A DNA stretch of 64,000 nucleotides from Anaerolineales bacterium (GTDB taxonomy: Bacteria > Chloroflexota > Anaerolineae > Anaerolineales > UBA6668): positions 52,465 through 116,464 of the forward strand of contig JAHDBW010000001.1 in the NCBI GenBank assembly GCA_020630175.1. Direction: 5' to 3'. Positions within the stretch are counted from its first letter, which is position 1, and every line of letters starts with the position of its first letter. A program made the position numbers and the translations under genes. The notes under the pieces were generated by a model. That model did not search any database and had not been told where the DNA came from. It was given only the letters and a program-made list of their open reading frames with translations. This document shows positions 34,623 to 47,735 of this stretch, piece after piece.

Positions 34623-35105
34623 ATGACAAAAAATCAACAGCCAAATTCAAAGAATTGTTTTGTTTGCGGCTTGGAAAACCCTGTCGGTCTCAAACTTGTC
34701 TTTTACGATAATGGCGAAGATTTAGTGTGGTGTAACTACACGTTCCCTAAACATTTTGAAGGCTACCCCGGTGTAGGACATGGTGGCATTGTGGCAACCA
34801 TTCTTGATGAAACTGTGGGGCGGGTCGCAATGATTAAGAACCCAGAGAACTTCATGATGACAGTTAAGATTGAGGTCAAGTATCGTAACCCGGTGCCATT
34901 AGAGACAGACTTGCATGTGACCGGTGAGATGATCAAACATCGTGGCCGCTTAGCGCAGGCAAAATCTTACATTCGCGTGGCAGGAACCGACACAATTCTG
35001 GCAGAAGCGGCGGCAACACTAGCAACAGTGCCAACCGAAACAATTGCCGGTGGTGCAAATGCTGAGGAATTAGGCTGGAAAGTCTACGACAATGTTGGAA
35101 GTTGA
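34623..35105 (+). CDS. PaaI-family hotdog-fold thioesterase
   Basis: 160 aa with CFVCGLENPVGLKL and GHGGIVATILDETVG. Confidence 0.75.
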   Translation: MTKNQQPNSKNCFVCGLENPVGLKLVFYDNGEDLVWCNYTFPKHFEGYPGVGHGGIVATILDETVGRVAMIKNPENFMMTVKIEVKYRNPVPLETDLHVTGEMIKHRGRLAQAKSYIRVAGTDTILAEAAATLATVPTETIAGGANAEELGWKVYDNVGS

Positions 35106-35760
35106 GGCCAAATTTGTGCTTCCGCCAGGCTTTGATCTGGCACGCATTACAACATTATCTGCGGTTGCAGGATTCCCACTTTCACCGATACAGATTGTTA
35201 ATGTCCATGACACGTATCTAGAAACGGTCAATAAAGACGTGGAAGCCTTGGGCTATGTGACCCGCTTACGAATTGTAGACGGGACCACGCGCTTGATTAC
35301 GGTGAAGTCACGTGCGTCAAGCGGTGGGGCAGTGTCTATGCGCGAAGAACATGAGTTTGCGATTCAAACTGATTATCAACCGCAGGCCTGGCCTGACACG
35401 CTGGATGTTAAATCTAAGTTTGTTGATCAATTGCAACAGCGGCCGTTACAGCCCTATTTTGAAATTCGCCAACGCCGCGAACAACGACTATTGATAGAGC
35501 AAGATGCACCCGTTGCTGAGCTAACATTAGATTATGTGCAAGTTTGGTGTGAAAATACGCACCTAGAGGGATTTTCCGTACTAGAAATAGAGCTGATTGA
35601 TGCATCAGCAATGGCTATAATGGATGCAATTCTAGTATTCATGCGGTCAGAATTTAGCTTAGAAAGTGTAGCTGTGGCAAAATTGGCGCGTGCTGAAGCT
35701 GCAGTGATCGAATGGAAAAAAAACTCGATTTTGAGATTTGCCTACAAAGTGATTAAATAA
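35092..35760 (+). CDS. CYTH-domain (triphosphate tunnel metalloenzyme) protein
   Basis: 222 aa. It has the ExExK signature at the N-terminus (MLEVEAKF), followed by TRLRI, EHEF and LEIEL strands. It overlaps the thioesterase gene by 14 nt. Confidence 0.75.
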   Translation: MLEVEAKFVLPPGFDLARITTLSAVAGFPLSPIQIVNVHDTYLETVNKDVEALGYVTRLRIVDGTTRLITVKSRASSGGAVSMREEHEFAIQTDYQPQAWPDTLDVKSKFVDQLQQRPLQPYFEIRQRREQRLLIEQDAPVAELTLDYVQVWCENTHLEGFSVLEIELIDASAMAIMDAILVFMRSEFSLESVAVAKLARAEAAVIEWKKNSILRFAYKVIK

Positions 35761-35764
35761 GGGC

Positions 35765-36154
35765 ATGTCCCTACAAACCGAAGGTAAACAAACCGTCATC
35801 GTTGTTGATGACGAAGCTGAAACCGCAGCAATGCTTGGCACAATGTTGCAAGTTAGCGGGTATGATGTATTACGCGCACACTCGCCTGCGAAGGCAATGT
35901 CGCTAATTCAACATCATAATCCGGATCTTGTTTTATTAGATATTATGATGCCGGGCGTATCTGGTTTAGAATTGTGTCGGTATTTACGGCGCGATCCGCG
36001 ATATAGGGAGTTACCAGTGGTAATTATCTCTGCAAAATCGCAACCAGAAGACATTCGTGAAGGCATGAATGCCGGCGCTACAGCGTATCTGACAAAACCT
36101 GTGGCGATGAAAACGCTAATTCAAACGATTGGCACATCGCTGGAGAATAACTAG
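35765..36154 (+). CDS. Single-domain response regulator (receiver only)
   Basis: 129 aa with an acidic pocket (VVDDE), the phospho-acceptor context LVLLDIMMPG, and later SAK and KP motifs. Confidence 0.9.
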   Translation: MSLQTEGKQTVIVVDDEAETAAMLGTMLQVSGYDVLRAHSPAKAMSLIQHHNPDLVLLDIMMPGVSGLELCRYLRRDPRYRELPVVIISAKSQPEDIREGMNAGATAYLTKPVAMKTLIQTIGTSLENN

Positions 36155-36607: not shown

Positions 36608-37060
36608 CTAGCCTTCGTATACCCAGCTTTCGCCAACGCGTTCCCAGCTAACGATTTCGTCAGCAGCGAACCATAGGCCAACTTCTGCAACACCATTTTC
36701 TGGTGAGTCAGATGCGTGGATCAGGTTACGGCCGATATCGATACCGAAGTCACCACGAATGCTACCTGGGGCAGCTTGGGTTGGATTGGTAGCCCCAACG
36801 CTTTGGCGTACGGCTTCAATCACTTTGTTGCCTTCCCATGCCATCAAAACGACAGGGCCAGAGGTGATGTATTCGATCAGCGCTGGGTAAAAAGGACGTT
36901 CTTTGTGAACAGCATAGTGTTGTTCTGCCATGTCTTGTGAAACTTGTACAAATTTCATGCCGATCATGCGAATGCCACGGCGTTCCAAGCGTGAGATGAT
37001 TTCTCCCATCAAGCCGCGGGCAACGCCGTCTGGCTTAATGATGACTAATGTCTTTTCCAA
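36608..37060 (-). CDS. ndk: Nucleoside diphosphate kinase
   Basis: 150 aa with [10 protein letters not shown] and NLIHASDS (catalytic His). The start is TTG, preceded by GGAGA. Confidence 0.95.
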
Positions 37061-37143
37061 GAGATTGGTCTCCTATAAGTATTTTTTGTTTGAAATTGAA
37101 AAGAATAACCACATTTGCAGCTATTCAGAATGCGCCATCAAGC

Positions 37144-40100
37144 CTAAAAACGAGATAGCGCAGATTTATATGCATCTAATGCCTGTTGCAACTGATCGTT
37201 GCGCATGTACGCATCGCCAAGCAATTGCATCCACAGTGGGGTAGCTTTATCGCTTTTACCAATATCTTCAAGGTGCGAAACAACAGTGTCTAAATTCTTG
37301 CCAGATTTTACCAACTTCTGGAAAACATCGTAAGCCCGATCATTTTCGCCTTTTTCAAACAGCCCATGGGCATGCTCAATCAGGTTGATGCTGGTAGACG
37401 CTTTTGGTTTTGAGACTTTTACCTGACGTTTGGCGGCCATTTCTGCCCGAATTGCGGCAATGTTTGGGCCTGAAGACGGTGCAGGTGGCTCTGGGATTGG
37501 GATTTGTTTTGGTTCAACAGCAGTTGGTGCTGGCGTTTCCACAACTGGTGTCTCAATCACTGGCGCTGAAGTTTCAATCACTGTGTCTTCAACAACCGCC
37601 TCGACAATCACCTCAGGTAAGTCTTCACTTGGGGCGTCTTCAACAATTTTTTCAACTTTATCGTCGATTGGTGTTAGTCCAGCGTCTTTGCTGGCAGGTG
37701 GCATAGAGATACCAGACCCAAGTGCCCCCAATGGTGCCATACTAATCCCATGTGGCTCTGGTTTGCTATCTAATTCTGGTTCACTTTCAGCGACGATTGG
37801 CTCAGCTGGCAATGGTTTTGTATCAACTTTTGCCCAACCACTTGGTTCCGGATCTTTTTCAACTGGCGCCGGTTTAGCGGCTTGCGTATTCAAATCAAGC
37901 GCCGCTTCTTTAGACGTGTCTAAGTCACCAATAGAATTATCTGCAATAGGCGTTAGCCCGTTTTGCGGTTGTTCTAAGTTCTTTAGCCATTCGGGAACAT
38001 TTTCTGCCCGTGGCAAGTCGATGGCGTCTTCCGCTGGGTCTGTTTTTGCAGGCTCAGGGTCAGGCTGAATGCTGTCTAGCCATGCTTCAGTTTCTTCTAC
38101 AAGTTCATCGGTAGAAGAGACTGGGCTCGTGTCTTCTACATTGGCATTTGTTGCTGTATCAACTGGCTCGGCTTGCGTCGCTTCTTGGAAAATCGTGTTG
38201 ATATCATCTTCGCTTAGCGTTGACGGATTTTCTACCGTTGGCTCACCAAGAATGTCATGCAACCAGCTTGGGTTTTCATCCAAGATTTGTGCTGCAACTT
38301 CTGCCGTGTCGCCTTGACTTTCTTCTGGGCTAATAAATGCTTCCAGTTGATCTAAACCGAGCGGTTCGTCAGTCAGCGGTAAGTCTTGCTGCGGCGCGAC
38401 GGCATCCAAGGTTGGTAGCTCTACTGCGTCATTGACCGAGTCGATCAATTCACTAAGTAGGGGTAGCTCAGCGTCTTCTTCGGCATCAATGCTAGGCACT
38501 TCAACGTCTGGAATAACTGGGGCGCTTTCCAAAGTGGGCAGCGCGTCGGCAACTGCTGGAAGATCCATCTCGGCGGTCGCCTCTGGCACGATCGCGTCTA
38601 AGGTTGGCAATTCAATTTCCGGCGTGATGTCTTCAATACGCTCAGGAATGGATGTTTCTATTGGCGCATCTAAAGTTGGCAATTCGACTTTTTCTTCAGC
38701 GTTATCCAATAGGGCACCTAAATCTGGCAGATCTGCTTCCTCTTCCGTGCCGGCTGTCACTGGGACTGGGGGCGGGAACACCATATCTGCATCAATCTCA
38801 GGCATTGAAATTTCAGGTGCGATTGTTTCTTCAACAATCTCTTCGACCTGCATCGGAAGTTCGTCAGTGACAGGTGTGATGACAGTCTCTGCAATCGCTT
38901 CAATCGGTGGCAGTTCAGCCACTTCACTCTTAGCCGCCTCAGAGATATCTTGGGTGCCTTCTTTTAGCACTGCCATCATATCCAACATGTCCATGTCTTG
39001 TGAATCAGACATGGCATCATCATTCCCAGCAATACTATCAGTCGTCGCAATGGCGCTTTCTTCAATGGCAGGGATGGCAGGTGTTGGTTCTGGTGTTGCA
39101 GCCACAGCATCGACTGCTGGTGTGGCTGCTGTGCCGCCCGCTTCAGCTTGCATTGCTTGATGCAGCCAATCTGGGACATCTAAAGGCTTATCACCAGCGT
39201 CTGCAAACGGATCTTCTTCCGGTTTGCGGAGCCAGTCTGGACTTGTATCTTCAATATTGCTGGTGGCCTTCAGCGTTGGCATTGTGCTGTCTGCTGCTGG
39301 CGTTTGGCGTACCGTTTCGGCGGGCTCAGGCAGCCAGTCTGGCATTTCTGGCACTTCAAATTGTGCAGACCCGGTATCAGCAACAGCGTCAATGGCGGCC
39401 AGAATATCTTCGTCGGGTGTCTCTTCAGCGGTCTTGCTTTTGAGGATTGGCTCAATGCTGGCGCCGTCTTCTTTACTAGGAATGCCAAAGGGGGCTAACC
39501 AGTCTGGTAGTTCACCTTTTTCAAGTTCTTCAACGTTCCCTTCAGTCGCATTAGCGTTGGCCACGATGGCATCTACTGCGGCTTGTGTCATTTCTGGCGC
39601 AGGCGGTTGTTCCACAACTGGCTCTGGATCAGGCGTGATCGGGTCAAGGATGCTTTCTAGAATTGAAGGTGCTTCTGCGTCTTGGATGGCACCAAGCGAT
39701 TCGAGTTCAGGAGCAGCTTCAACGTCTGGCATCAGTGGCTCTGTGTTGGAGACGGGTGGCTGCGTCAGTTCAGCTAAAGGATCGATTGGCGTTTCTGCTG
39801 GTGCAGATTTGGCATTGATCGCTTTTAGCCAATCTGGCAAGTCATCATCAGTCGTTGACTCCATACTGCTAACGCTGTTGTCGTCTTCGGTGAGATTGAA
39901 AATATTTTCCAATGCGGCTTCGTCTGGCTGTAACAATGCGTTGTCTGCGTCGGTTACAGCTTGCTCCGCGTCATTGTCATTTCCTAACCCAAAGATGGAC
40001 GATAAAGCGCCAGTATCCATTGTGGGTGGCTTGCCATCATTGAGCCAGTCCGGAAGACCTTGCTCATCATCATTATCGTTTGGTTGAAAAATAGAATCGT

Positions 40101-41163
40101 TACCAGTCATAGTGTCTACTTCCGTATCGGGGGCTGTTTCGGTTGGACTATCTTTTGTTTCAACCGCTTGGTCTGCCTCTGCCGGAACCGCATCTAATGC
40201 AGGGCTCAGCACCTCGATATCAATTGGTACCATGGGCTGCGTATCACCAAGTGTTTCCGTTGGAGCAACGGCTTCAAACTCAGCATTTGCAGTATGTTGT
40301 TCTTCAATATTGGCAATTTCTTCGGCAACTGTCAACTCTTCATCAATTTGAGGTAGGGCGACTTGTGTTGTTGCAGCGGCAATTGCTAATTTCTCGACCT
40401 CGATTTTGATCGGCGCAACGTAATGCGTTGCGTCTAGTTCAGCGAGATCGGTGACGTGTTCGTAATAAGGGTCTAACTCTTTTAAAGCGAGATGATGCGG
40501 CCGTGAGCGCTCATAAACACCGGCCTCTTGCCAGATGCTCGCCAGCATATGGTGGGCAGGGCGGCAATTCGGCAAGCTTTTGAGCAATGCATCGCAGGTT
40601 TCCGTTGCAGCTTCTGTTTTGTCGCTCTTCCATTGCGCTTCCGCAAGAATGAGTTTCAGGTCAGCGCGTTCGGGTTGTTCACCAAGTGCCACTTGGCTTT
40701 CTGCAATCGCCTGATCAAACAAGTCGCCGTTTAGATATAAGCGGCACAATGCGCCGCGCGTTAATAGAATGCGTTCTGGCGCAGTCCCGTCTCGTTTTTC
40801 GTACAGGGCGGAAAGTTGACGGCGCACCGTATTGTTGCTTGGTTCGCTCTCAAACGCGCGCTCTGCGTGCCAGATCGCGTCGGTAATGTCATTCCGTTGT
40901 TCCAATACTGTGGCTAAGCCAATATGGGCGGCCTCATCTGCTGGCTCGGCAGACAACACCCGTTGGAACATTTCTTTGGCGCTAGCAAGATCTTCAATTG
41001 CTAAAAATGCATGCCCCATTGCACGGTAGACGGCAATATTCTTTGGATACAGCTCAACCAAATGCCGCAAGTGGGCAATTGCTTGGTTGGTGGCACCGGT
41101 GCTAATTAGAGTATCAATCTCAGTAAGATAATCTCGGAAGGCAATTTTGGACATTTTACGCAA
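37144..41163 (-). CDS. Giant TPR protein with a ~1000-aa acidic low-complexity core
   Basis: 1339 aa. TPR-like helices occupy aa 1-240 and 1255-1339. Between them lies a Glu/Asp/Pro/Ala/Thr-rich region. There is no signal peptide or TM helix. Confidence 0.8.
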   Translation of the reverse strand: MRKMSKIAFRDYLTEIDTLISTGATNQAIAHLRHLVELYPKNIAVYRAMGHAFLAIEDLASAKEMFQRVLSAEPADEAAHIGLATVLEQRNDITDAIWHAERAFESEPSNNTVRRQLSALYEKRDGTAPERILLTRGALCRLYLNGDLFDQAIAESQVALGEQPERADLKLILAEAQWKSDKTEAATETCDALLKSLPNCRPAHHMLASIWQEAGVYERSRPHHLALKELDPYYEHVTDLAELDATHYVAPIKIEVEKLAIAAATTQVALPQIDEELTVAEEIANIEEQHTANAEFEAVAPTETLGDTQPMVPIDIEVLSPALDAVPAEADQAVETKDSPTETAPDTEVDTMTGNDSIFQPNDNDDEQGLPDWLNDGKPPTMDTGALSSIFGLGNDNDAEQAVTDADNALLQPDEAALENIFNLTEDDNSVSSMESTTDDDLPDWLKAINAKSAPAETPIDPLAELTQPPVSNTEPLMPDVEAAPELESLGAIQDAEAPSILESILDPITPDPEPVVEQPPAPEMTQAAVDAIVANANATEGNVEELEKGELPDWLAPFGIPSKEDGASIEPILKSKTAEETPDEDILAAIDAVADTGSAQFEVPEMPDWLPEPAETVRQTPAADSTMPTLKATSNIEDTSPDWLRKPEEDPFADAGDKPLDVPDWLHQAMQAEAGGTAATPAVDAVAATPEPTPAIPAIEESAIATTDSIAGNDDAMSDSQDMDMLDMMAVLKEGTQDISEAAKSEVAELPPIEAIAETVITPVTDELPMQVEEIVEETIAPEISMPEIDADMVFPPPVPVTAGTEEEADLPDLGALLDNAEEKVELPTLDAPIETSIPERIEDITPEIELPTLDAIVPEATAEMDLPAVADALPTLESAPVIPDVEVPSIDAEEDAELPLLSELIDSVNDAVELPTLDAVAPQQDLPLTDEPLGLDQLEAFISPEESQGDTAEVAAQILDENPSWLHDILGEPTVENPSTLSEDDINTIFQEATQAEPVDTATNANVEDTSPVSSTDELVEETEAWLDSIQPDPEPAKTDPAEDAIDLPRAENVPEWLKNLEQPQNGLTPIADNSIGDLDTSKEAALDLNTQAAKPAPVEKDPEPSGWAKVDTKPLPAEPIVAESEPELDSKPEPHGISMAPLGALGSGISMPPASKDAGLTPIDDKVEKIVEDAPSEDLPEVIVEAVVEDTVIETSAPVIETPVVETPAPTAVEPKQIPIPEPPAPSSGPNIAAIRAEMAAKRQVKVSKPKASTSINLIEHAHGLFEKGENDRAYDVFQKLVKSGKNLDTVVSHLEDIGKSDKATPLWMQLLGDAYMRNDQLQQALDAYKSALSRF
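37984..40053 (-). repeat. Array of nine short [P/A]-[D/E/S]-W-L peptide motifs encoded within the TPR gene
   Basis: PDWL occurs at aa 371, 443, 553, 608, 642 and 664. Variants are PSWL at 965, EAWL at 1026 and PEWL at 1057. The first and last were verified on the DNA (40042-40053 and 37984-37995). Confidence 0.85.
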
Positions 41164-41208: not shown

Positions 41209-42231
41209 CTATAGGCCTTGGATCTGACCTATTCTGGCCAGTACTTTAGCGATGGAAGGCGTGTGCATTGTTGGCGGTGCCTCATCAGTTTGTAACGATT
41301 GCCCTAAAACGCCGGCAATTGTTGCTGCAACACCATTCCCCAGTCCCACTAAGTCATAACCGCCTTCTAGCACAAATGCTAAACGGCCTTCACATACCTC
41401 AGCTGCTAACTGTGTAAGCGCAGCGCCAAGCCATTGAAAGCCAGCTGCAGTGTAATTCAGGCTAGCTAATGGGTCTCGGAAATGGCCGTCATATCCAGCA
41501 GAGATCAAGATAAAGTCTGGCTCAAATCTGGTGATGGCAGGCTTTACAAGTTGCTCATAGGCCTGCTGCAACCCAGCATCATCTGTGTGGGCAGGCACTG
41601 GAATATTCAGCGTTGTGCCTTGACCGCGGCCCGCACCAGTCTCTTGAATAGTGCCAGACCCCGGATAGATGCCGTCTTGGTGCATTGAGATAAACAGCAC
41701 CGAGTCATTCGCATAGAAAATATCTTGCGTGCCGTTGCCGTGATGCACATCAAAATCAAAAATGGCCACGCGCTTATAGCCTAGCTTTTGGGCATGGCAA
41801 GCTGCAACAGCAACGTTATTGACTAAACAAAATCCCATTGCCTGATCTGGTGGGGCGTGATGCCCCGGTGGACGTGCAATTGAAAAGCCAACGCTGCCCG
41901 CATGTTCTGCAACATACTCTACGATTGCAAGTGCCGCGCCACAAGCGTCCAATGCAAGGTTGTAGGACTCTTTTGTGATGTAAGTGGGGGCATGATCTAG
42001 GTGACCGGGAGCCTTTTCCATCACGGCTTTTAGCGCATCAAGATAGTCTGGCATGTGCGCGCGAGTGATTTGCTTCACGAGCGCTGGCGCATAAGGCAGC
42101 TTTGTGAGTTGCTCAGTTAGCCCGTAGGCTTGCAATGCGCCCACAATGGCCGTTACGCGCTGATTGTTTTCAGGATGTGTCTCCTCGTTATGTGCTAACG
42201 ATTCAACAACAGAATAAACCACAGATGTCAT
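41209..42231 (-). CDS. Histone deacetylase-family (class II HDAC / AcuC-like) deacetylase
   Basis: The ORF extends to 42270. ATG 42231 is preferred because the hppA terminator abuts the longer form. Motifs are PPGHHAPPDQAMGFCLVNN and DFDVHHGNGTQ. Confidence 0.85.
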   Translation of the reverse strand: MTSVVYSVVESLAHNEETHPENNQRVTAIVGALQAYGLTEQLTKLPYAPALVKQITRAHMPDYLDALKAVMEKAPGHLDHAPTYITKESYNLALDACGAALAIVEYVAEHAGSVGFSIARPPGHHAPPDQAMGFCLVNNVAVAACHAQKLGYKRVAIFDFDVHHGNGTQDIFYANDSVLFISMHQDGIYPGSGTIQETGAGRGQGTTLNIPVPAHTDDAGLQQAYEQLVKPAITRFEPDFILISAGYDGHFRDPLASLNYTAAGFQWLGAALTQLAAEVCEGRLAFVLEGGYDLVGLGNGVAATIAGVLGQSLQTDEAPPTMHTPSIAKVLARIGQIQGL

Positions 42232-42264
42232 AAGTTTGATTGTAAACGGTTTGCGTATTTTCAC

Positions 42265-42301
42265 AAACAAAAAAGGGCTTTCGTTTGCACGAAAACCCTT
42301 T
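42265..42301 (-). terminator. Rho-independent terminator of hppA (minus strand)
   Basis: The minus strand reads AAAGGGTTTTCG-tgcaaa-CGAAAGCCCTTT followed by TTTGTTTG. Confidence 0.75.
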
Positions 42302-42335
42302 TTGTTTTGTTTTTTAGCGTTTGTTCTGTCTAGTT

Positions 42336-44543
42336 TTAGAAGAACATGCTGATAAGGCCGAAGCCACCAGAGGTTGCGGCAACAACACCTGCGAACACCA
42401 CTGAAACCATGCTCATCAACTTGATCAAGATGTTGAGTGATGGGCCACTGGTATCTTTGAAGGGGTCACCGACGGTGTCACCAACAACGGTCGCTTTGTG
42501 GGTTTCTGAACCCTTACCACCGTGTGCGCCAGCTTCAACGTATTTTTTAGCGTTGTCCCAGGCACCACCGGCGTTTGACATCATAACTGCCATTACGAAA
42601 CCAGTTGAAAGACCACCAGCCAAGAGGCCGATAACACCCGCAACACCGAAAATGATCCCGACTGCAATTGGAATTACAATCGCGAGAACTGCTGGTGCAG
42701 TCATTTCTTTTTGGGCAGCTAGGGTTGAAATTTCAACACAGCGTTTGTAGTCTGGCTTTTGTGAGCCATCCATAATGCCAGGGTATTCGCGGAATTGACG
42801 GCGAACTTCTTGTACCATCGCGCCAGCAGCACGACCAACAGCTTCCATTGTCATTGCTGAGAAGAAGAATACTGCCATTGCGCCTAAGAACAAACCGATC
42901 AGGGTAGATGGGTTCATCAGAGTCACGTTGTAGTGTGACATGAAGTCCTCGATGGTTGCGGTTGCAGCGCTAACGCCGTTTACAAGTGCGTCGCCACCAA
43001 GTGAGTCGCGAATTTGTTCAATGTATGCAGCGATCAGGGCTAGTGCGGTAAGTGCAGCACTACCGATTGCAAAGCCTTTACCGGTTGCAGCGGTGGTGTT
43101 ACCGACTGAGTCGAGTTGGTCGGTGCGTTCGCGAACTTCTGGTGGCAGACCAGCCATTTCAGCGTTACCACCAGCGTTGTCTGCAATTGGGCCGTATGCA
43201 TCAGTCGCGAGTGTAATGCCCAAAGTTGAGAGCATTGCCACTGCGGCTAAACCAACACCGTAGAGACCGAAGAGTGTGTTAGCACTCCCGCCTGAGATGT
43301 AGAAGCTGACTGCGATACCGATCACAACGGTAACCACAGGGATCCACGTTGAGCGCATCCCAACTGCCAACCCTTGAATAATTACGGTAGCAGCGCCACT
43401 TTCACCTTGCGCGGTAATTGATCGTGTTGGTGCATATTCAGCAGAGGTGTAGCGTTCGGTTGCTTTACCAATCGTAATCCCAACCAAAATGCCGGTTACA
43501 ACGCTAATCCAGAGCGCTGTTGGGCCTTCAATAAGATTGAATGCCCGAATGATGAAGAATGAAACAACTGCAACACCGGCTGCAGAAGCGTTGATCCCGC
43601 GATCAAGCGCGCCCATCAATTCGTGTGCTGTTGCATCTTCTTTGGTTTGAACCAAGAAGGTGCCCAGTACAGAAATGATTGCACCAGCGCCAGCGATTGC
43701 CATTGGTAATGACAAGTATTGCATTTGTGCAGGAACGCTTGCAGCAATGTCTGGGGCGGTGGTGGCGATTGCAGCAACACCGAGTGAAGCCGTTGCCAAA
43801 ATTGAACCCATATATGATTCATAGAGATCAGCACCCATACCAGCTACGTCACCAACGTTGTCACCAACGTTGTCTGCAATGGTTGCTGGGTTGCGGGGAT
43901 CGTCTTCTGGAATACCAGCTTCAACTTTACCAACGAGGTCAGCGCCAACATCAGCTGCTTTGGTGAAGATACCCCCACCGACGCGTGCGAACAATGCTTG
44001 GGTTGATGCACCAAACGCGCCACCTAGCAAAATCGCCATGATGTTTGTCAAGCTCAATGATTGATCTACTAAGAACAAAATCAAGAAGATGACAGATACG
44101 TTGATCAATGCAAACCCAACCACTGAAAGACCCATAACAGCACCAGCGCGGAAGGCAACTTGGAGGCCATCGTTGAGGCTTGTGCGGGCTGCAGCGGCAG
44201 TACGTGCGCTAGCATTGGTTGCTGTTTTCATCCCAATGTAACCGGTTAGGGTACTAAATACACCACCAACCAAGAACACAAATGGAACGTACATGCTTTG
44301 TAGTCCAGTTAGGGCCAGGACTAGAAAGACTACGAACAGACCAACAAAAACCATTGCAACAATGCGGTATTGGCTAGCGAGGTAAGCCATGGCTCCCTCA
44401 CGAACTGCCTGCGCAATCTCTTTCATTTGGTCGGTGCCTTCGTCGTTCGACATAACCGAACGGTAGAATAGGAAGGCGGAGATTAGGGCGACAGCCGCCC
44501 CGATCGGTGCCAGCCACCAAAGTGCTGGTAAGTTACTTAACAT
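42336..44543 (-). CDS. hppA: Membrane-bound H+/Na+-translocating pyrophosphatase
   Basis: 735 aa and polytopic, with the motifs FTKAADVGADLVGKVE, DNVGDNVGD and GDTVGDPFKDT. Confidence 0.95.
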   Translation of the reverse strand: MLSNLPALWWLAPIGAAVALISAFLFYRSVMSNDEGTDQMKEIAQAVREGAMAYLASQYRIVAMVFVGLFVVFLVLALTGLQSMYVPFVFLVGGVFSTLTGYIGMKTATNASARTAAAARTSLNDGLQVAFRAGAVMGLSVVGFALINVSVIFLILFLVDQSLSLTNIMAILLGGAFGASTQALFARVGGGIFTKAADVGADLVGKVEAGIPEDDPRNPATIADNVGDNVGDVAGMGADLYESYMGSILATASLGVAAIATTAPDIAASVPAQMQYLSLPMAIAGAGAIISVLGTFLVQTKEDATAHELMGALDRGINASAAGVAVVSFFIIRAFNLIEGPTALWISVVTGILVGITIGKATERYTSAEYAPTRSITAQGESGAATVIIQGLAVGMRSTWIPVVTVVIGIAVSFYISGGSANTLFGLYGVGLAAVAMLSTLGITLATDAYGPIADNAGGNAEMAGLPPEVRERTDQLDSVGNTTAATGKGFAIGSAALTALALIAAYIEQIRDSLGGDALVNGVSAATATIEDFMSHYNVTLMNPSTLIGLFLGAMAVFFFSAMTMEAVGRAAGAMVQEVRRQFREYPGIMDGSQKPDYKRCVEISTLAAQKEMTAPAVLAIVIPIAVGIIFGVAGVIGLLAGGLSTGFVMAVMMSNAGGAWDNAKKYVEAGAHGGKGSETHKATVVGDTVGDPFKDTSGPSLNILIKLMSMVSVVFAGVVAATSGGFGLISMFF

Positions 44544-44766: not shown

Positions 44767-45678
44767 TTGATTACAGCCAATAACTTATTAAAAACATTTG
44801 GAAGCCGAAACGCAGTTAATGGCGTGTCGTTTGCTTTAAATAAAGGCGAAGTTGTGGGATTGCTTGGGCCTAACGGCGCCGGCAAAACAACAATTATGCG
44901 GTTGCTAACCGGTTATTTACAGCCAGACGGCGGATCTATCACCATCGATGGTGCGCAAATTGAACCACAATCGCATGCGTTTAAGCAGCGAATCGGATAC
45001 CTGCCAGAAACAGTGCCACTTTATGAAGATTTGTCTGTTAATCAGTATTTGGTCTATTTTGCCAAGCTCTACGCATTAGAAAATCGTAATACTAAGATCA
45101 CACAAGCACTCCATGTAGTAGATTTATTAGATCGCCAAGAATCGCTAGTGGGAAACTTATCAAAAGGGATGCGCCAACGTTTGGGATTAGCGCGGGCCAT
45201 CCTGCATGATCCCGATATTCTCTTGCTGGATGAACCCACAATTGGGCTGGATCCGGCGCAAGTGGTTGATATTCGGGCGCTAATTCAAAAGCTAGGGCAA
45301 ACAAAGACCGTGTTATTTTCCACCCACATTTTGGCGGAAGCACAAGAGACCTGTGATCGATTGATTATTTTACGTGAAGGCGCAGTTGTGGCGGAAGGTG
45401 ATGTGGCGACATTAGCCGCCAAGCTAGTGCCGCAAACGGCAGTTGATGTGCAAGTGCAAGACAGCACCGGCTTTGAAACGTTTGTCACGAGCCGTGCCTG
45501 GTGCCAATCAGTAAGCCAGACTGCGGCAGCGCGGTTTGTCTTGTATTTAGAGCCAGCCGTTAGCAAGAGCGATATTTTGGCAGAGATCGTCGGGCAGGGC
45601 TTTGCGGTTGATGCGTTTACTGCGCTTGAAAACAACTTGGAAGATATTTATCTAGACTTGCTCACACAGAGCAGCTAA
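44767..45678 (+). CDS. ABC transporter ATP-binding protein (GldA-like, ABC-2 subfamily)
   Basis: 303 aa with Walker A (GPNGAGKTT), signature (LSKGMRQR) and Walker B (LLLDEPTIGLD). The start is TTG. Confidence 0.9.
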   Translation: MITANNLLKTFGSRNAVNGVSFALNKGEVVGLLGPNGAGKTTIMRLLTGYLQPDGGSITIDGAQIEPQSHAFKQRIGYLPETVPLYEDLSVNQYLVYFAKLYALENRNTKITQALHVVDLLDRQESLVGNLSKGMRQRLGLARAILHDPDILLLDEPTIGLDPAQVVDIRALIQKLGQTKTVLFSTHILAEAQETCDRLIILREGAVVAEGDVATLAAKLVPQTAVDVQVQDSTGFETFVTSRAWCQSVSQTAAARFVLYLEPAVSKSDILAEIVGQGFAVDAFTALENNLEDIYLDLLTQSS

Positions 45679-45685
45679 TTCAAAT

Positions 45686-46411
45686 ATGCGCGTCTTTACA
45701 ATTGCGTGGCGTGAATTTCGCCAATACTTTACCGGTGTCGGGGGCTATATCTTTGTCCTTTTATATATGGTGATTCTGGGGTTGATCTTTATTTCCTCTG
45801 TTCAGCCGGGACAACCATTGCAAACGGGCGTGATCAACAGTGCGTTTCTAACCTTGGCTTTGTTTACCGCACCGTTTATGACCATGCGCACATTTGCCGG
45901 TGAACGTCAGCGCGGCACGTTAGAACTGCTACAGCTAACGCCAGTCACGCATTGGCAGCTTGTGATTGGCAAATGGCTGGGCGTGTTTGGATTGGCGCTT
46001 GTGATTGTGCTGACTGCACTTTGGTTGCCGATTAGCGCGTTGTTATTTGCCAATTTAGACCTTGGGTCTATTTATGCGGTGTTTTTTGGCGCGCTCTGTG
46101 TTTTTGCCGCAACGTTGGCGATTGGCATTTTCTCTTCAGTTGTTGCCAAAACGGTATTGGCTTCAGTGGCAATTTCTAGCGTGATCACGCTCACGCTTTG
46201 GGTGATTGGGCTAGCCGCCGCAACGCTGGAGTTAGGCTTGATTGGCTTACCAGAATCCGTCACAACAGTCATTCGCTATTCAGATCTCAGCAGTCACTTT
46301 CGCGATAGCTTCGCGCAAGGCGTAATTGATAGCAGCGATTTGATCTATTTTGCCTCGCTAACGATTGGGTTCTTGTCCATTGCGACCGCAAGCTTGCAGC
46401 GGCAACGTTAG
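45686..46411 (+). CDS. ABC-2 type permease (GldF-like)
   Basis: 241 aa with six hydrophobic helices. The start (FTIAWREFRQYF) is typical of the family. Confidence 0.7.
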   Translation: MRVFTIAWREFRQYFTGVGGYIFVLLYMVILGLIFISSVQPGQPLQTGVINSAFLTLALFTAPFMTMRTFAGERQRGTLELLQLTPVTHWQLVIGKWLGVFGLALVIVLTALWLPISALLFANLDLGSIYAVFFGALCVFAATLAIGIFSSVVAKTVLASVAISSVITLTLWVIGLAAATLELGLIGLPESVTTVIRYSDLSSHFRDSFAQGVIDSSDLIYFASLTIGFLSIATASLQRQR

Positions 46412-46418
46412 CGCACTT

Positions 46419-47735
46419 ATGTTTAGATCTGCTCTCCGAACAACGCTTATTCTAATTTTGCTGATTAGCATCAACATTATTGGGTTTCATCCGCGTTACC
46501 GTATCCGCTTAGATGTTTCTGCCAACGGCAGCAATACCCTAGCACCCGAATCGCTGGCTGTCGTGCAAGACTTGCCGCCAAATGTATCTGCAATCGGCTT
46601 TTATACCAATGCCAGTGGGGGGCGTCGGCAGCGTGCTGAAGAGTTGCTCAATCAATATCGGCTAGCAAGCAATGGCGCATTTGATTATCAATTGGTAGAT
46701 CCCGATGTAAATCCAACTCTAGCCCGTGAGTATGCCGTGGTTGAAGATGCCACGCTCTTGATTTTGAATGGCGATACGCGCGTCCGGGTTCGCTTACTTA
46801 CTGAAGGTGAGCTAACCAACGCCATGTTTAATGCGCTCAATCCGCGTACGCGCCAGCTTTACTTTGTAACAGGCCACGGCGAAAACAATATTGCAGATGG
46901 TACGGAGATCGGACTGTCTACACTGAATGCCCGTCTCAATCAGCGCGGCATTCAAACGGCGGATCTCAACCTGCTAACGGGCGGGGTGCCTGCGGATGCG
47001 AATTTGGTGGTGATTGCAGGTGCCGTCTCTGAATTCTCTGCTGCTGAGATCGCCGCAGTTGATACGTACTTAGCGCAAGGGGGCAAGTTGCTGTTACTAA
47101 GCGACTCGCCTGAAACCGCAGATCCGCAGCGGCTTGAGACGTACATTAGCGAAGCGTGGGGGCTGACGCTTCAGCCAGACTTAGTGTCAGACTTCTCTTA
47201 CTCTGTGTTGGGGAGTCCGGTAAATCCGCTCATCTGGAACTATGCGCCGCATCCAATTTCAGAAGGATTGTTAGACTTGTCGATCTTTTTACGCACTGCG
47301 CGGTCTATCCAATTAGCAGACAGTGCAGACGTTACAACCAGCAGCTTGGCAGAAACCAGCAATGCTGCCAGCGCAATCGCTGTTGATGGTTTGATCGCAG
47401 AAAAAGAAGCGCTCACGGGCCTGACTATTGTTGGCGTGGCGGAAAATATTGCCTCTGATGGGGTGGTATTAGCGATTGGCGATGTGGATTTTGTCTCCAA
47501 TGCGGTGTTGCAGCAATTCCCAAATAATGCCTTGCTGTTTGAAAACTCTGCAAACTGGCTGATTGGTGATTTGAATGCAATTCAATTAACGCCCCGCGCT
47601 GCGGTTGACAACAGCCATCAAATCATTACACTGACAGATCAGGTGCGTTTTATTGCGATTGTTTGGGTGTTACCAATGTTGCTTGTGATTGGGGTTGGGT
47701 TATCTGTGCGGGTTAGCCGCCGGGCGCGTAAATAA
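46419..47735 (+). CDS. GldG-family ABC accessory protein
   Basis: The ORF opens at 46365, but ATG 46419 is preferred. It has N- and C-terminal TM anchors. RLDVSANGSNTLAPES...YQLVDPDVNP matches the GldG pattern. Confidence 0.7.
   Translation: MFRSALRTTLILILLISINIIGFHPRYRIRLDVSANGSNTLAPESLAVVQDLPPNVSAIGFYTNASGGRRQRAEELLNQYRLASNGAFDYQLVDPDVNPTLAREYAVVEDATLLILNGDTRVRVRLLTEGELTNAMFNALNPRTRQLYFVTGHGENNIADGTEIGLSTLNARLNQRGIQTADLNLLTGGVPADANLVVIAGAVSEFSAAEIAAVDTYLAQGGKLLLLSDSPETADPQRLETYISEAWGLTLQPDLVSDFSYSVLGSPVNPLIWNYAPHPISEGLLDLSIFLRTARSIQLADSADVTTSSLAETSNAASAIAVDGLIAEKEALTGLTIVGVAENIASDGVVLAIGDVDFVSNAVLQQFPNNALLFENSANWLIGDLNAIQLTPRAAVDNSHQIITLTDQVRFIAIVWVLPMLLVIGVGLSVRVSRRARK

What the first reader, a model, noticed from the sequence alone, without database searches (positions are those of the whole stretch)
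37144..41163. 1339-aa TPR protein whose ~1000-aa acidic core carries nine P-D-W-L-type motifs and ELPTLDA repeats
**What the sequence shows.**
- TPR-like helical ends (aa 1-240 and 1255-1339) bracket a Glu/Asp/Pro/Ala/Thr-rich core with no TM helix or signal peptide.
- The core contains six exact PDWL motifs, each preceded by an acidic or hydrophobic residue: GLPDWL 369-374, DLPDWL 441-446, ELPDWL 551-556, EMPDWL 606-611, TSPDWL 640-645 and DVPDWL 662-667.
- Three variants follow: NPSWL at 964-968, EAWL at 1026-1029 and VPEWL at 1056-1060.
- There are three copies of (V/I)ELPTLDA (aa 826-833, 850-857 and 914-921; nt 38374-38733).

**Why it stands out.** Sharp, evenly dispersed Trp-containing motifs in an otherwise low-complexity acidic chain look like short linear docking motifs rather than compositional noise. 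TPR domains are classic peptide-motif receptors. A self-associating or scaffold function, or multivalent recruitment of a partner, is therefore conceivable. I know of no characterised function for this architecture. It is the most unusual protein in the window.
Basis: partly seen in the sequence, partly recalled or inferred. Interest (0 to 1): 0.55.

Follow-up and report, generated by a model that had tools for sequence, protein, structure and literature searches.

The report
Conserved tryptophan-motif scaffold protein of Anaerolineae
This gene encodes a real protein, conserved across a whole class of filamentous bacteria, whose long acidic floppy middle carries many copies of a tiny tryptophan-containing "docking tag" that also occurs in membrane-anchored proteins of the same bacteria, so an undescribed protein-recruitment system probably exists whose binding partner is still unknown.

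Summary
**Observation.** Confirmed. The ORF lies on the minus strand (37144-41163). It carries six exact PDWL motifs plus PSWL, EAWL and PEWL, and three ELPTLDA copies, all at the stated residues. Shuffling predicts 0.012 PDWL; six are observed.

**Family.**
- It is an intact, conserved gene of Anaerolineae-type Chloroflexota, with at least 555 species-representative genomes.
- The architecture is fixed: an N-terminal TPR domain (AF2 pLDDT 95), a variable polyanionic disordered core, and a C-terminal ~90-aa TPR-like domain.
- ndk lies directly downstream in 61 of 62 loci.

**Motif.**
- The family-wide consensus is [DE][DE]-Φ-P-[DE]-W-[LM]-x-x-Φ, with 4-31 W-L sites per protein.
- PDWL is 372-fold over composition.
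- Motif columns are 77% identical among close orthologues, against 29% for the linkers.
- There are no DNA repeats, and synonymous codons differ between copies.

**New finding.** The same array is a reusable module.
- Of the 150 best array-bearing proteins in 1.84 billion representatives, only 34 have this N-TPR.
- About 85-89 are zinc-ribbon and/or C-terminal-TM membrane proteins, encoded in a separate conserved operon.
- 17 are ndk-linked forms that lack the N-TPR.

**Best reading.** A multivalent short-linear-motif scaffold.
- The reader protein is unidentified.
- Binding to the protein's own TPR domains is neither shown nor needed in cis.
- No literature on the motif was found.

**Scores.** Interest 0.64; new variant of a known kind.

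The parts
37144..41163 (-). Whole ORF (1339 codons from TTG; probable true start ATG at 41154 gives 1336 aa; stop codon 37144-37146)
   Evidence: (P0001 100% identical, 1336 aa)
40390..41154 (-). N-terminal TPR domain (aa 4-258): 13 helices plus a small beta-pair between residues 3-5 and 252-254. It is the most conserved part of the family, with an invariant patch W95-H96-x-E98-R99 ... R121-D-G ... T132-R133.
   Evidence: Pfam TPR_14/TPR_19 above cutoff; alignment A1 mean column identity 65%; AF2 pLDDT 95.4, pTM 0.90; only generic TPR matches by Foldseek and PDB profile
37423..40389 (-). Polyanionic, probably disordered core (aa 259-1247; D+E 228, K+R 33; pI about 4) that carries the motif array and other short conserved islands
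   Evidence: low pLDDT of the equivalent region in homologue P0087; the region does not align outside the closest orthologues
40042..40053 (-). PDWL motif 1 (aa 371-374, GLPDWLN)
39826..39837 (-). PDWL motif 2 (aa 443-446, DDLPDWLK); identical in both close orthologues
39496..39507 (-). PDWL motif 3 (aa 553-556, GELPDWLAPFG); LP[DE]WLAPFG conserved in orthologues
39331..39342 (-). PDWL motif 4 (aa 608-611, FEVPEMPDWLPEP); identical in orthologues
39229..39240 (-). PDWL motif 5 (aa 642-645, EDTSPDWLRKPEEDPF); identical in orthologues
39163..39174 (-). PDWL motif 6 (aa 664-667, LDVPDWLHQAMQA); identical in orthologues
38260..38271 (-). Variant motif PSWL (aa 965-968, NPSWLHDILGEPTVE); conserved in orthologues
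38077..38088 (-). Variant motif EAWL (aa 1026-1029, LVEETEAWLDSI). It matches the family island 'AxAWLESLAA', which AF2 models as a confident helix in P0087.
37984..37995 (-). Variant motif PEWL (aa 1057-1060, NVPEWLKNL); P[EQ]WLKNL in orthologues
38401..38685 (-). Three (V/I)ELPTLDA copies (aa 827-833, 851-857, 915-921) in the Trp-free middle of the core. They are lineage-specific: only the third is partly kept in orthologues (LPTLSE / LPTMSE).
37147..37422 (-). C-terminal ~90-aa TPR-like domain (aa 1248-1339; the only non-acidic part, pI about 8.2), preceded by the basic island KRQVKVSKPK. It is found at the extreme C-terminus of all 120 listed homologues.
   Evidence: (five helices, pLDDT >95 in P0087)
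36608..37060 (-). ndk (nucleoside-diphosphate kinase), 83 bp downstream on the same strand. This is the conserved gene partner of the family.
   Evidence: NCBIfam NF001908, 200 bits against cutoff 155; ndk directly downstream in 61 of 62 loci, gap 33-349 bp;
37103..37126 (-). Weak terminator-like hairpin (10-bp stem, 3 G-C pairs, T-run) in the spacer between the gene and ndk; significance unclear
   Evidence: 9 sites found against 6.8 +/- 3.0 expected in shuffles, so not above chance

Best explanation
**What it is.** The ORF encodes a genuine cytoplasmic scaffold protein that is conserved across Anaerolineae-type Chloroflexota. Two small folded TPR modules flank about 1000 residues of polyanionic disordered chain:
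- an N-terminal domain of about 6.5 repeats;
- a C-terminal domain of about 2.5 repeats.

**The motif.** The disordered chain displays an array of one short linear motif. It has 9 copies here and 4-31 in relatives, with a median spacing of 36 residues. The consensus is [DE]-[DE]-Φ-P-[DE]-W-[LM]-x-x-Φ.

**Proposed mechanism.**
- Each copy folds into a one- to two-turn amphipathic helix, capped by Pro-Asp. Trp, Leu and the +4 hydrophobic residue lie on one face.
- That face inserts into a pocket on a separate 'reader' protein.
- Many weak copies on one flexible acidic chain give avidity. The protein therefore concentrates or cross-links many reader molecules.
- The TPR ends tether the array to other components.
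- The same reader would also be recruited to the membrane by Zn-ribbon / PDWL-array / TM proteins of the same bacteria.

**Shown.**
- The motif is real and non-random.
- It is under purifying selection, maintained at the amino-acid level, and conserved class-wide.
- It is reused in at least three architectures.
- The gene is intact and tightly syntenic with ndk.

**Inferred.**
- The binding function, the helix-on-binding model and the multivalency.

**Unknown.**
For: **Non-random, selected motif**
- Chance expectation is 0.012 PDWL against 6 observed.
- All 120 listed homologues carry W-L and P[DE]WL sites.
- The logo around 2,818 core Trp residues is -5/-4 acidic, -3 aliphatic, P 61%, D/E 59%, W, L 63%, +4 L 31%. 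Median spacing is 36 aa.
- PDWL is 372x over composition family-wide.
- In the orthologue trio, motif columns are 77% identical, the linkers 29% and the folded ends 70% (p = 3.5e-13).
- There is no DNA tandem repeat, and the copies use different synonymous codons.

**Fixed architecture, real gene**
- The C-terminal domain sits at the C-terminus of all 120 homologues.
- The N-TPR has AF2 pLDDT 95.4.
- At least 555 relatives occur among GTDB species representatives.
- 57 of 62 complete loci have uninterrupted ORFs.
- ndk lies directly downstream in 61 of 62 loci.

**Modularity**
- A 31-column motif profile finds 884 array-bearing proteins in 1.84e9 representatives.
- Of the top 150: 34 have the N-TPR, 17 have only the C-domain, 57 have a Zn-ribbon plus a C-terminal TM, and 28 have a C-terminal TM only. 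The logos are indistinguishable between classes.
- The Zn-ribbon class sits in its own conserved operon in 3 of 3 loci.

**Specificity and structure**
- In about 1.4 Mb of flanking DNA, no other ORF carries the extended motif.
- AF2 on a full-length homologue gives 4-6-residue helices that start at the Asp of each PDWL.
Against: - No reader has been identified, and no binding was tested.
- AF2 does not dock canonical PDWL sites confidently onto either TPR domain. The 10-residue-block mean pLDDT over those sites is about 40-57. The tool returns no coordinates or PAE, so contacts could not be inspected.
- The window protein has relatively few copies (9, against a family median of about 14), and its array is interrupted by a 300-aa Trp-free stretch.
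- A multi-copy conserved motif could instead act through motif-motif ('sticker') contacts or membrane contact, with no folded reader.
- Expression was not examined.
- The near-universal ndk linkage is not explained by this model.
Confidence: 0.5

Rival explanations
1. **Self-recognition.** The family's own TPR modules (the N-TPR and/or the basic C-terminal domain) are the readers of PDWL. The protein would then form head-to-tail networks or gels. It would also bridge to the membrane-anchored Zn-ribbon/PDWL proteins.
For: - The TPR ends and the motifs are the two conserved features of the protein.
- The N-TPR is unusually conserved for a TPR (65% mean column identity) and has many invariant Arg, His, Trp and Tyr residues.
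- The C-domain is the only basic part of a polyanion (pI 8.2). It accompanies the array in two architectures.
- From my own knowledge: TPR grooves do bind acidic Trp motifs, for example kinesin light chain with 'W-acidic' cargo motifs.
- Four non-canonical islands reach block-mean pLDDT 72-84 in the full-length AF2 model, which could reflect packing on a domain.
Against: - At least 85 of the top 150 array proteins have neither TPR domain.
- An ndk-linked positional orthologue lacks the N-TPR.
- Canonical PDWL sites are not docked with confidence by AF2.
- The N-TPR is net acidic overall (pI 5.3).
Confidence: 0.2
2. **FtsZ-tail mimicry.** The motif copies the conserved C-terminal peptide of FtsZ (D-I-P-x-F-L-R). 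The array would then engage FtsZ-tail-binding division proteins (FtsA, SepF, MinC-like). It would act as a division-site scaffold or a competitor of FtsZ. ndk alongside would supply GTP.
For: - The positional match is -4 acidic, -3 aliphatic, -2 Pro, 0 aromatic, +1 Leu, and +2 often K or R.
- The E. coli tail is DIPAFLR and the B. subtilis tail is DIPTFLR (strings found in PMC6657595 and PMC4117426).
- Many homologues hold a single island IPDFLRxAGW or IPDFMRAAGW. It reaches block-mean pLDDT 77 in AF2.
- The membrane-anchored Zn-ribbon version sits in an operon with an actin-fold (PF13941) protein.
Against: - Position +2 is not reliably basic: E 17%, S 15%, K 13%, R 11%.
- No FtsZ, FtsA or SepF gene is in the window or in any fetched locus.
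- The FtsZ tail of these organisms could not be retrieved, so the key comparison was not made.
- The pattern is also that of a generic Pro-capped amphipathic helix.
Confidence: 0.1
3. **Reader-less function.** The protein would act as a polyanionic entropic chain, cation buffer or condensate scaffold. The Trp-Leu sites would be 'stickers' that contact each other, or the membrane interface, rather than a folded partner.
For: - The net charge is extreme, about -195 over 989 residues.
- The layout resembles stickers and spacers, with a median spacing of 36 aa and variable copy number and length.
- Neighbouring genes are often Mg-dependent phosphoryl-transfer enzymes: ndk in 61 of 62 loci, and H+-PPase within 10 kb in 45 of 86 loci.
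Against: - Simple stickers would not need six to eight constrained positions (acidic-acidic-Φ-P-D-W-L-x-x-Φ). Nor would they need to stay identical across three unrelated architectures.
- Acidic flanks argue against binding to anionic membranes.
Confidence: 0.12
4. **NDK scaffold.** The array or the TPR ends would bind the oligomeric nucleoside-diphosphate kinase encoded immediately downstream, to localise or concentrate NTP regeneration.
For: - The gene pair is almost invariant: 61 of 62 loci.
- It is also kept in the architecture that lacks the N-TPR.
Against: - The Zn-ribbon/PDWL class is not next to ndk.
- The window's NDK is an ordinary 150-aa enzyme.
- There is no direct evidence of interaction.
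Confidence: 0.06
5. **Artefact.** The motifs would be chance products of biased composition, or the ORF would be a decaying or non-coding stretch.
For: - Low-complexity acidic composition.
- Long antisense ORFs overlap the gene.
Against: - The shuffle test gives 0.012 PDWL against 6 observed.
- The motif, both end domains and the synteny are conserved across hundreds of species.
- ORFs are intact in 57 of 62 loci.
Confidence: 0.01

Closest known systems
Zn-ribbon / PDWL-array / TM proteins of Anaerolineae (uncharacterised; e.g. P0132, P0124, P0201)
   Same: - They carry the identical motif logo and a similar copy number (median 13-14) in a cytoplasmic acidic chain.
- They come from the same bacterial class.
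   Different: - They have no TPR domains. Instead they have an N-terminal single or double zinc ribbon (PF13240/PF12773), then a TM helix, a ~190-aa domain and a C-terminal TM helix.
- They are encoded in a different conserved operon (DUF6754, two polytopic membrane proteins, a PF13941 actin-fold protein) and are not next to ndk.
PEX5 (eukaryotic peroxisomal import receptor)
   Same: - It works alike in outline: a TPR domain plus a long disordered region with several Trp-based motifs (WxxxF/Y) used for multivalent docking (my own knowledge).
- PEX5 TPR structures are among the Foldseek hits (TM about 0.38).
   Different: - Eukaryotic, with a different motif and the opposite domain order.
- The fold match is generic TPR only, so there is no family relationship.
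Kinesin light chain TPR with 'W-acidic' cargo motifs
   Same: - An acidic-flanked Trp motif read by a TPR groove (my own knowledge). This is the precedent for the self-recognition rival.
   Different: - The motif is [LM]-x-W-[DE], usually in one or two copies.
- No evidence here that a TPR reads PDWL.
FtsZ conserved C-terminal peptide (DIPAFLR / DIPTFLR)
   Same: - It shares the acidic-aliphatic-Pro-x-aromatic-Leu pattern.
- The subfamily island IPDFLR is nearly the same string.
   Different: - A single copy at the end of a tubulin homologue, followed by basic residues.
- Here there are arrays of 4-31 sites, Trp instead of Phe, and a variable +2 position.
FimV / HubP polar hub proteins
   Same: - Very large, highly acidic, repeat-bearing proteins with a terminal TPR-like module that recruit several partners (my own knowledge).
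   Different: - FimV/HubP have a LysM domain, a TM segment and a FimV C-terminal domain.
- None of these was detected here.
GW182/TNRC6 and epsin/Eps15-type Trp or DPW/DPF motif arrays (eukaryotes)
   Same: - Many weak Trp-containing motifs on a disordered chain give avidity for pockets on a folded partner (my own knowledge).
   Different: - Eukaryotic, with different motifs and partners.
- I know of no bacterial counterpart that has been described.

Membership tests
TPR repeat superfamily (Pfam clan) | Sequence match to TPR repeat models above the curated cutoff | tested here: met
   TPR_14 59.9 bits (cutoff 23.5), TPR_19 59.3 (25), TPR_16 41.1 (32.7) and TPR_2 36.4 (27)
TPR repeat superfamily (Pfam clan) | Helix-turn-helix repeat superhelix fold | tested here: met
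   The AF2 model has 13 helices, pLDDT 95.4. Foldseek probability is 1.00 to consensus TPR, OGT and PilF.
This family: N-TPR / PDWL array / C-domain proteins of Anaerolineae (unnamed) | Family-specific N-terminal TPR domain with the invariant IWHxERAF and RDGxxPxxxxLTRGAL patches | tested here: met
   Alignment A1: the window sequence is 36-73% identical to members and all invariant residues are present
This family: N-TPR / PDWL array / C-domain proteins of Anaerolineae (unnamed) | Conserved ~90-aa C-terminal domain at the extreme C-terminus | tested here: met
   BLASTP of the window's last 95 aa hits all 120 homologues at their C-terminus
This family: N-TPR / PDWL array / C-domain proteins of Anaerolineae (unnamed) | ndk immediately downstream on the same strand | tested here: met
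   The window gap is 83 bp. 61 of 62 loci show the same arrangement.
PrsT (XrtA/PEP-CTERM TPR lipoprotein, TIGR02917) | Score above the curated equivalog cutoff | tested here: not met
   67.1 bits against cutoff 312.2; no lipoprotein signal
MamA (magnetosome TPR protein, NF040959) | Score above the curated cutoff | tested here: not met
   49.9 bits against cutoff 200
PilW/PilF type IV pilus TPR lipoprotein (TIGR02521) | Score above the curated cutoff; lipoprotein signal peptide | tested here: not met
   32.8 bits against 154; no hydrophobic N-terminus; Foldseek TM only 0.37
FimV/HubP polar hub | LysM domain, TM helix and FimV C-terminal domain | tested here: not met
   No such hits at the listing thresholds used (Pfam E<=1, NCBIfam E<=0.001). 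The maximum 19-residue hydropathy is 1.29.
FtsZ-tail-like ligands of FtsA/SepF/ZipA | Binding of the peptide to an FtsZ-tail-binding protein of the same organism; similarity to that organism's own FtsZ tail | not testable with these tools
   No ftsZ, ftsA or sepF in the window or loci. Only pattern similarity is shown.
Short linear motif (SLiM) array in a disordered region | Motif positions conserved while the flanking sequence drifts | tested here: met
   77% against 29% column identity, p = 3.5e-13; family logo
Short linear motif (SLiM) array in a disordered region | Independent recurrence of the motif in unrelated protein contexts | tested here: met
   Three architectures share the same logo
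Short linear motif (SLiM) array in a disordered region | A demonstrated binding partner | not testable with these tools
   No multimer prediction or experiment was available. The single-chain AF2 model is inconclusive.

The most novel reading that the evidence does not exclude
PDWL arrays may be the ligand half of a previously unrecognised bacterial motif-reader system, specific to Anaerolineae-type Chloroflexota.
- One conserved cytoplasmic reader would be gathered by a soluble, ndk-linked TPR scaffold (this gene). Candidates are a cytoskeletal or division protein, or the family's own TPR module.
- The same reader would be gathered at the membrane by a Zn-ribbon/TM protein that belongs to an operon with an actin-fold ATPase.
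- This would be a prokaryotic counterpart of eukaryotic multivalent Trp-motif hubs such as PEX5, GW182 and the endocytic adaptors. It might organise septa or cell-cell architecture in these multicellular filaments.
Probability: 0.35. Interest if true: 0.8.

Novelty: new variant of a known kind. Interest (0 to 1): 0.64.

Why it matters
- **A rare kind of bacterial protein.** Bacterial proteomes are thought to be poor in long disordered regions and in eukaryote-style arrays of short linear motifs. This is a class-wide conserved bacterial protein in which about three quarters of the chain is a polyanionic disordered region. Selection on that region acts on a 7-10-residue Trp motif repeated up to about 30 times.
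- **A wider interaction code.** The same motif array also occurs on membrane-anchored zinc-ribbon proteins. That points to a dedicated interaction code in Anaerolineae, a group of abundant but poorly studied filamentous bacteria found in wastewater, sediments and soils.
  - Function for two large uncharacterised families, which together number at least 884 cluster representatives.
  - An explanation for the near-invariant linkage to ndk.
  - A tractable bacterial model for avidity-based scaffolding or condensate formation.

Tried and rejected
1. **Search with the acidic core alone** (aa ~345-690; the search for homologous proteins). It returned nothing, because the word-index candidates were swamped. 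One capped search was wasted.
None was found. No route was left to fetch an Anaerolineae FtsZ, so the FtsZ-tail idea stays untested.
3. **Exact-sequence look-up of P0001**. It is not on record, so the window's own contig could not be extended.
4. **Specific structural or sequence relatives of the N-TPR** (Foldseek against PDB; PDB profile; NCBIfam). Only generic TPR matches came back. PrsT, MamA and PilW membership were rejected on score cutoffs.
5. **DNA-level repeats or gene conversion as the source of the motifs**. Rejected. One repeat finder failed on strand syntax.
6. **Other motif-bearing proteins in 1.3-1.4 Mb of syntenic flanks**. None was found apart from fragments of the same gene.
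7. **Literature string searches** for PDWL, LPDWLR, IPDWLK, AWLESLA and 'DWL motif', plus a SLiM/TPR/bacteria term search. Nothing relevant was found.
8. **'The N-TPR is a basic receptor domain.'** Not supported by net charge (pI 5.3), although many invariant Arg and His residues exist.
9. **Names or taxa for the Zn-ribbon class** through the listing of cluster members. None was given. Taxon assignment rests on four named relatives.
10. **Model coordinates and PAE.** The tool does not expose them, so docking in the full-length AF2 model could not be inspected.

Full report
**1.

The ORF is on the minus strand, window 37144-41163. It has 1339 codons from a TTG start. The public copy, P0001, is 100% identical and starts at the ATG three codons in, giving 1336 aa.

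- six exact PDWL (W at aa 373, 445, 555, 610, 644, 666);
- NPSWL 964-968, EAWL 1026-1029 and VPEWL 1056-1060;
- three ELPTLDA copies at 827, 851 and 915.

In 20,000 shuffles of the protein the mean PDWL count is 0.012 and the maximum is 1; six are observed. Nine of the ten Trp residues in the core are followed by Leu. Pfam sees only TPR repeats, at about aa 13-210 and 1313-1337. There is no TM-grade hydrophobic segment. The core (aa 259-1247) has 228 Asp+Glu against 33 Lys+Arg.

There are two corrections. First, the motifs are not evenly spread. They form two clusters separated by a 300-residue Trp-free stretch, and that stretch contains the ELPTLDA copies.

**2. It is a real, intact, class-wide gene with a fixed architecture**

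A protein search returned 860 hits, capped at the 8000 candidates scored. They are 750-1800 aa 'tetratricopeptide repeat proteins' from Anaerolineae/Chloroflexi MAGs. Only two (47-49% identity) align end to end. The others align over the N-terminal ~240 aa at 37-46% identity.

All 120 listed homologues also carry the window's last ~90 residues at their extreme C-terminus. The family architecture is therefore an N-terminal TPR domain, a variable acidic core and a C-terminal small domain.

- The N-domain alignment (A1) has 65% mean column identity, with invariant patches IWHxERAF and RDGxxPxxxxLTRGAL.
- AF2 folds the N-domain at pLDDT 95.4 into 13 helices. Residues 3-5 and 252-254 form a small beta-pair.
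- Foldseek and a PDB profile search give only generic TPR matches, with TM about 0.4: consensus TPR, OGT, PilF, APC subunits and PEX5.
- NCBIfam gives only far-sub-threshold hits: PrsT 67 against 312 bits, MamA 50 against 200, PilW 33 against 154.

The 80 best carry these labels:
- Anaerolineales/Anaerolineaceae, Thermoflexales and Promineifilaceae;
- generic Chloroflexi/Chloroflexota/Chloroflexia MAG labels;
- two 'Ca. Aquidulcis' MAGs;
- one evidently mis-binned 'Methanosarcinales' contig.

Of 62 loci that contain both ends of the gene, 57 have an uninterrupted ORF of 711-1672 aa. Of the five exceptions, three are Microflora Danica (MFD) MAGs and two are co-assembly contigs, so sequencing or assembly error is the likely cause. 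The pseudogene scenario is excluded.

**3. Synteny**

ndk lies directly downstream on the same strand in 61 of 62 complete loci, with a gap of 33-349 bp. The window's gap is 83 bp. The same arrangement was seen independently in five look-ups of distant homologues. An H+-pyrophosphatase gene lies within 10 kb upstream in 45 of 86 loci, and in the window at 42336-44543. The spacer before ndk contains a weak hairpin with a T-run. Such sites are no more frequent here than in shuffled sequence, so co-transcription is likely but not shown.

**4. The motif is a selected short linear motif**

- Every one of the 120 homologues has W-L sites (4-31) and P[DE]WL (1-19).
- The logo around 2,818 core Trp residues is: -5/-4 Glu/Asp, -3 Leu/Ala/Ile/Val, -2 Pro 61%, -1 Asp 43% or Glu 16%, W, +1 Leu 63% (Met 8%), +3 Gly/Ser/Glu, +4 Leu 31%. 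Median spacing is 36 residues.
- PDWL is 372-fold more frequent in the cores than composition predicts.
- In the alignment of the window protein with its two close orthologues, the six columns at each Trp site are 77% identical. The rest of the core is 29% identical and the folded ends are 70% (Fisher p = 3.5e-13).
- TRF finds no repeat in the gene. The nine copies use different synonymous codons: CCG/CCA/CCC, GAC/GAT, and CTC/CTA/TTA/CTG/TTG. The repetition is therefore maintained at the amino-acid level and does not come from recent duplication.
- The ELPTLDA copies are lineage-specific. Only the third is partly kept in the orthologues.

**5. The array is a reusable module (the main new result)**

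A 31-column profile of 117 motif instances (A2) was searched against 1.84 billion cluster representatives. It finds 884 proteins at E<=1e-3 and 334 at E<=1e-10.

The best 150 were classified with local profiles of the N-TPR and the C-domain, a zinc-ribbon regex and C-terminal hydropathy:

| Class | Count |
|---|---|
| Family N-TPR | 34 |
| C-domain only | 17 |
| N-terminal zinc ribbon plus C-terminal TM helix | 57 |
| C-terminal TM only (many N-truncated) | 28 |
| Zinc ribbon only | 4 |
| Fragments | 10 |

The logos of all classes are indistinguishable, and the median copy number is 13-14 in each.

The zinc-ribbon class was read in full for P0132 and P0124. Its order of parts is:
- a single or double zinc ribbon (PF13240/PF12773);
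- 20-25 copies of [LT]PDWL[SA][GS]LG;
- a TM helix;
- a ~190-aa domain;
- a final TM helix with a basic tail.

Its C-terminal part finds relatives named Anaerolineales/Anaerolineae. In three of three loci it lies in a conserved, tightly packed operon: DUF6754, a polytopic membrane protein, the array protein, a second polytopic membrane protein, and a 583-708-aa PF13941 'MutL' actin-fold protein.

The one C-domain-only protein looked up (P0139, which lacks the N-TPR) is again followed directly by ndk. It is therefore a positional orthologue without the N-TPR.

In about 1.3-1.4 Mb of flanking DNA, and in the whole window, no other ORF carries even one copy of the extended motif.

**6. Structure of the motif**

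A full-length AF2 model was built for a 776-aa homologue (P0087, with a 54-sequence alignment). Both TPR ends have pLDDT >95 and the core has pLDDT below 50. Each canonical PDWL forms a 4-6-residue helix that begins at the Asp. Examples are H286-289, 351-355, 384-387, 561-564, 594-597 and 614-619. The 10-residue-block mean pLDDT over these sites is only about 40-57.

Four non-canonical islands score higher, by 10-residue block mean:
- IPDFMRAAGW, 77;
- AWLENLAARQGARQDELL, 84;
- PEWVQQA, 72;
- SAWLRSLEE, 74.

The tool returns no coordinates, so I cannot tell whether these islands pack on a TPR domain.

The pattern P-D-W-L-x-x-Φ fits a Pro-Asp-capped amphipathic turn with Trp, Leu and the +4 residue on one face. 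This is inference.

**7. Mechanism**

The best-supported reading is a multivalent short-linear-motif scaffold. Many weak copies of one docking motif sit on a flexible polyanionic chain, are tethered by TPR modules, and recruit or cross-link a shared cytoplasmic reader. The same reader would be recruited to the membrane by the zinc-ribbon proteins.

- Selection on the motif, its modular reuse and its specificity are shown.

The C-domain is the only basic part and accompanies the array in two architectures. However, most array proteins lack both TPR domains in cis, and AF2 does not dock canonical sites.
- **(b) An FtsZ-tail-binding division protein.** The motif matches D-I-P-x-F-L-R at five positions, and many homologues contain the literal island IPDFLR. 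However, +2 is not reliably basic, and I could not obtain an Anaerolineae FtsZ.
- **(c) NDK**, because of the near-invariant gene pair.

A reader-less 'sticker' or polyanion function remains possible. It fits poorly with eight constrained positions kept identical in three architectures.

**8. Comparison with known systems**

The protein works most like eukaryotic Trp-motif hubs. These comparisons rest on my own knowledge:
- PEX5, which has a TPR domain plus WxxxF/Y motifs in a disordered region;
- kinesin light chain TPR with W-acidic motifs;
- GW182;
- DPW/DPF endocytic adaptors.

In overall build it resembles acidic bacterial hubs such as FimV/HubP. It is not a member of any of these families. 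Only the TPR superfamily tests are met. PrsT, MamA, PilW and FimV features were tested and not met.

No paper in the searchable library mentions the motif strings.

**9. Verdict**

- The motif array is conserved across hundreds of species, is tied to ndk, and is shared with a separate membrane system.
- Function and partner remain unknown.
- I rate it a new variant of a known kind (a TPR scaffold with a short-linear-motif array), with interest 0.64.
- I give a 0.35 chance that it marks a previously unrecognised bacterial motif-reader system.

Noticed in passing
L088:8384-17799; L087:6734-15892; L090:6121-14810: The Zn-ribbon / PDWL-array / TM protein sits in a conserved, tightly packed operon in 3 of 3 loci. 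Gene order: small protein, DUF6754, polytopic membrane protein of about 201-220 aa, array protein, polytopic membrane protein of about 222-229 aa, then a PF13941 'MutL' actin-fold protein (583-708 aa). Two of the loci add a ~350-aa protein; in L088 that protein has a weak RnfC_N/biotinyl-like barrel hit. This is an uncharacterised membrane system. The small first protein of L088 begins 'MDSSRAYWPAWLDSL', a single PDWL-like site.
   Followed up: partly
L089:4598-7793: P0139 carries the PDWL array (EDDLPDWLRDVEE type) and a C-domain-like end but has no N-terminal TPR domain. It is still followed directly by ndk, so it looks like a positional orthologue in which the N-TPR is absent. The lineage is unknown (a JGI metagenome contig).
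   Followed up: partly
Homologues P0087 aa 308-318, P0092 aa 313-323; consensus of alignment A3: Many family members have one island IPDF[LM]RxAGW, almost the FtsZ C-terminal peptide DIPxFLR. They also have one island EQDDAxAWLESLAAKHGAKPEELVTDP. AF2 gives both islands the highest confidence within the disordered core (block-mean pLDDT 77 and 84). The window protein keeps only the AWLDSI equivalent (aa 1027-1032).
   Followed up: partly
L029 (JAIWHF010000127.1, 7.2 kb, coverage 0.48): A contig filed under a 'Methanosarcinales archaeon' MAG encodes a full family member (N-TPR match 44% identical, 11 W-L sites). This is almost certainly a Chloroflexota contig mis-binned into an archaeal MAG.
   Followed up: no
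L013, L014, L017, L045, L067 (also L025, L030, L078): The family gene is split by frame breaks in several MAGs, many of them from the Microflora Danica (MFD) set. The breaks fall in the repetitive acidic core and look like assembly or sequencing indels rather than decay.
   Followed up: partly
window 44767-47735 (+): Three adjacent genes: an ABC ATPase (PF00005), an ABC-2 permease (PF12679) and a protein with ABC_transp_aux/DUF4350/DUF7088 domains. This is a GldA/GldF/GldG-like arrangement of the kind linked to gliding-associated ABC transporters.
   Followed up: no
window 42270-42303 (-): A strong terminator-like hairpin (15-bp stem followed by a T-run) lies just downstream of the H+-pyrophosphatase gene. 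It overlaps the listed TTG start of the histone-deacetylase-family gene (41209-42270), so that gene's true start may be further in.
   Followed up: no
window 37430-38068, 38432-39160, 39224-40087 (+): Long antisense ORFs (212-287 aa, rich in Ser, Gly and Ala) overlap the gene on the opposite strand. They are most likely mechanical by-products of the GAN/GCN-rich coding strand, not genes.
   Followed up: no
window 35092-36154 (+) and loci L001, L003-L005: On the far side of ndk from this gene, the window has a CYTH-domain protein and a stand-alone response-regulator receiver. Relatives instead often have LigT/2',5'-RNA-ligase and RsfS there, and L001 also has a receiver. Only ndk is strictly conserved next to the gene.
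   Followed up: partly
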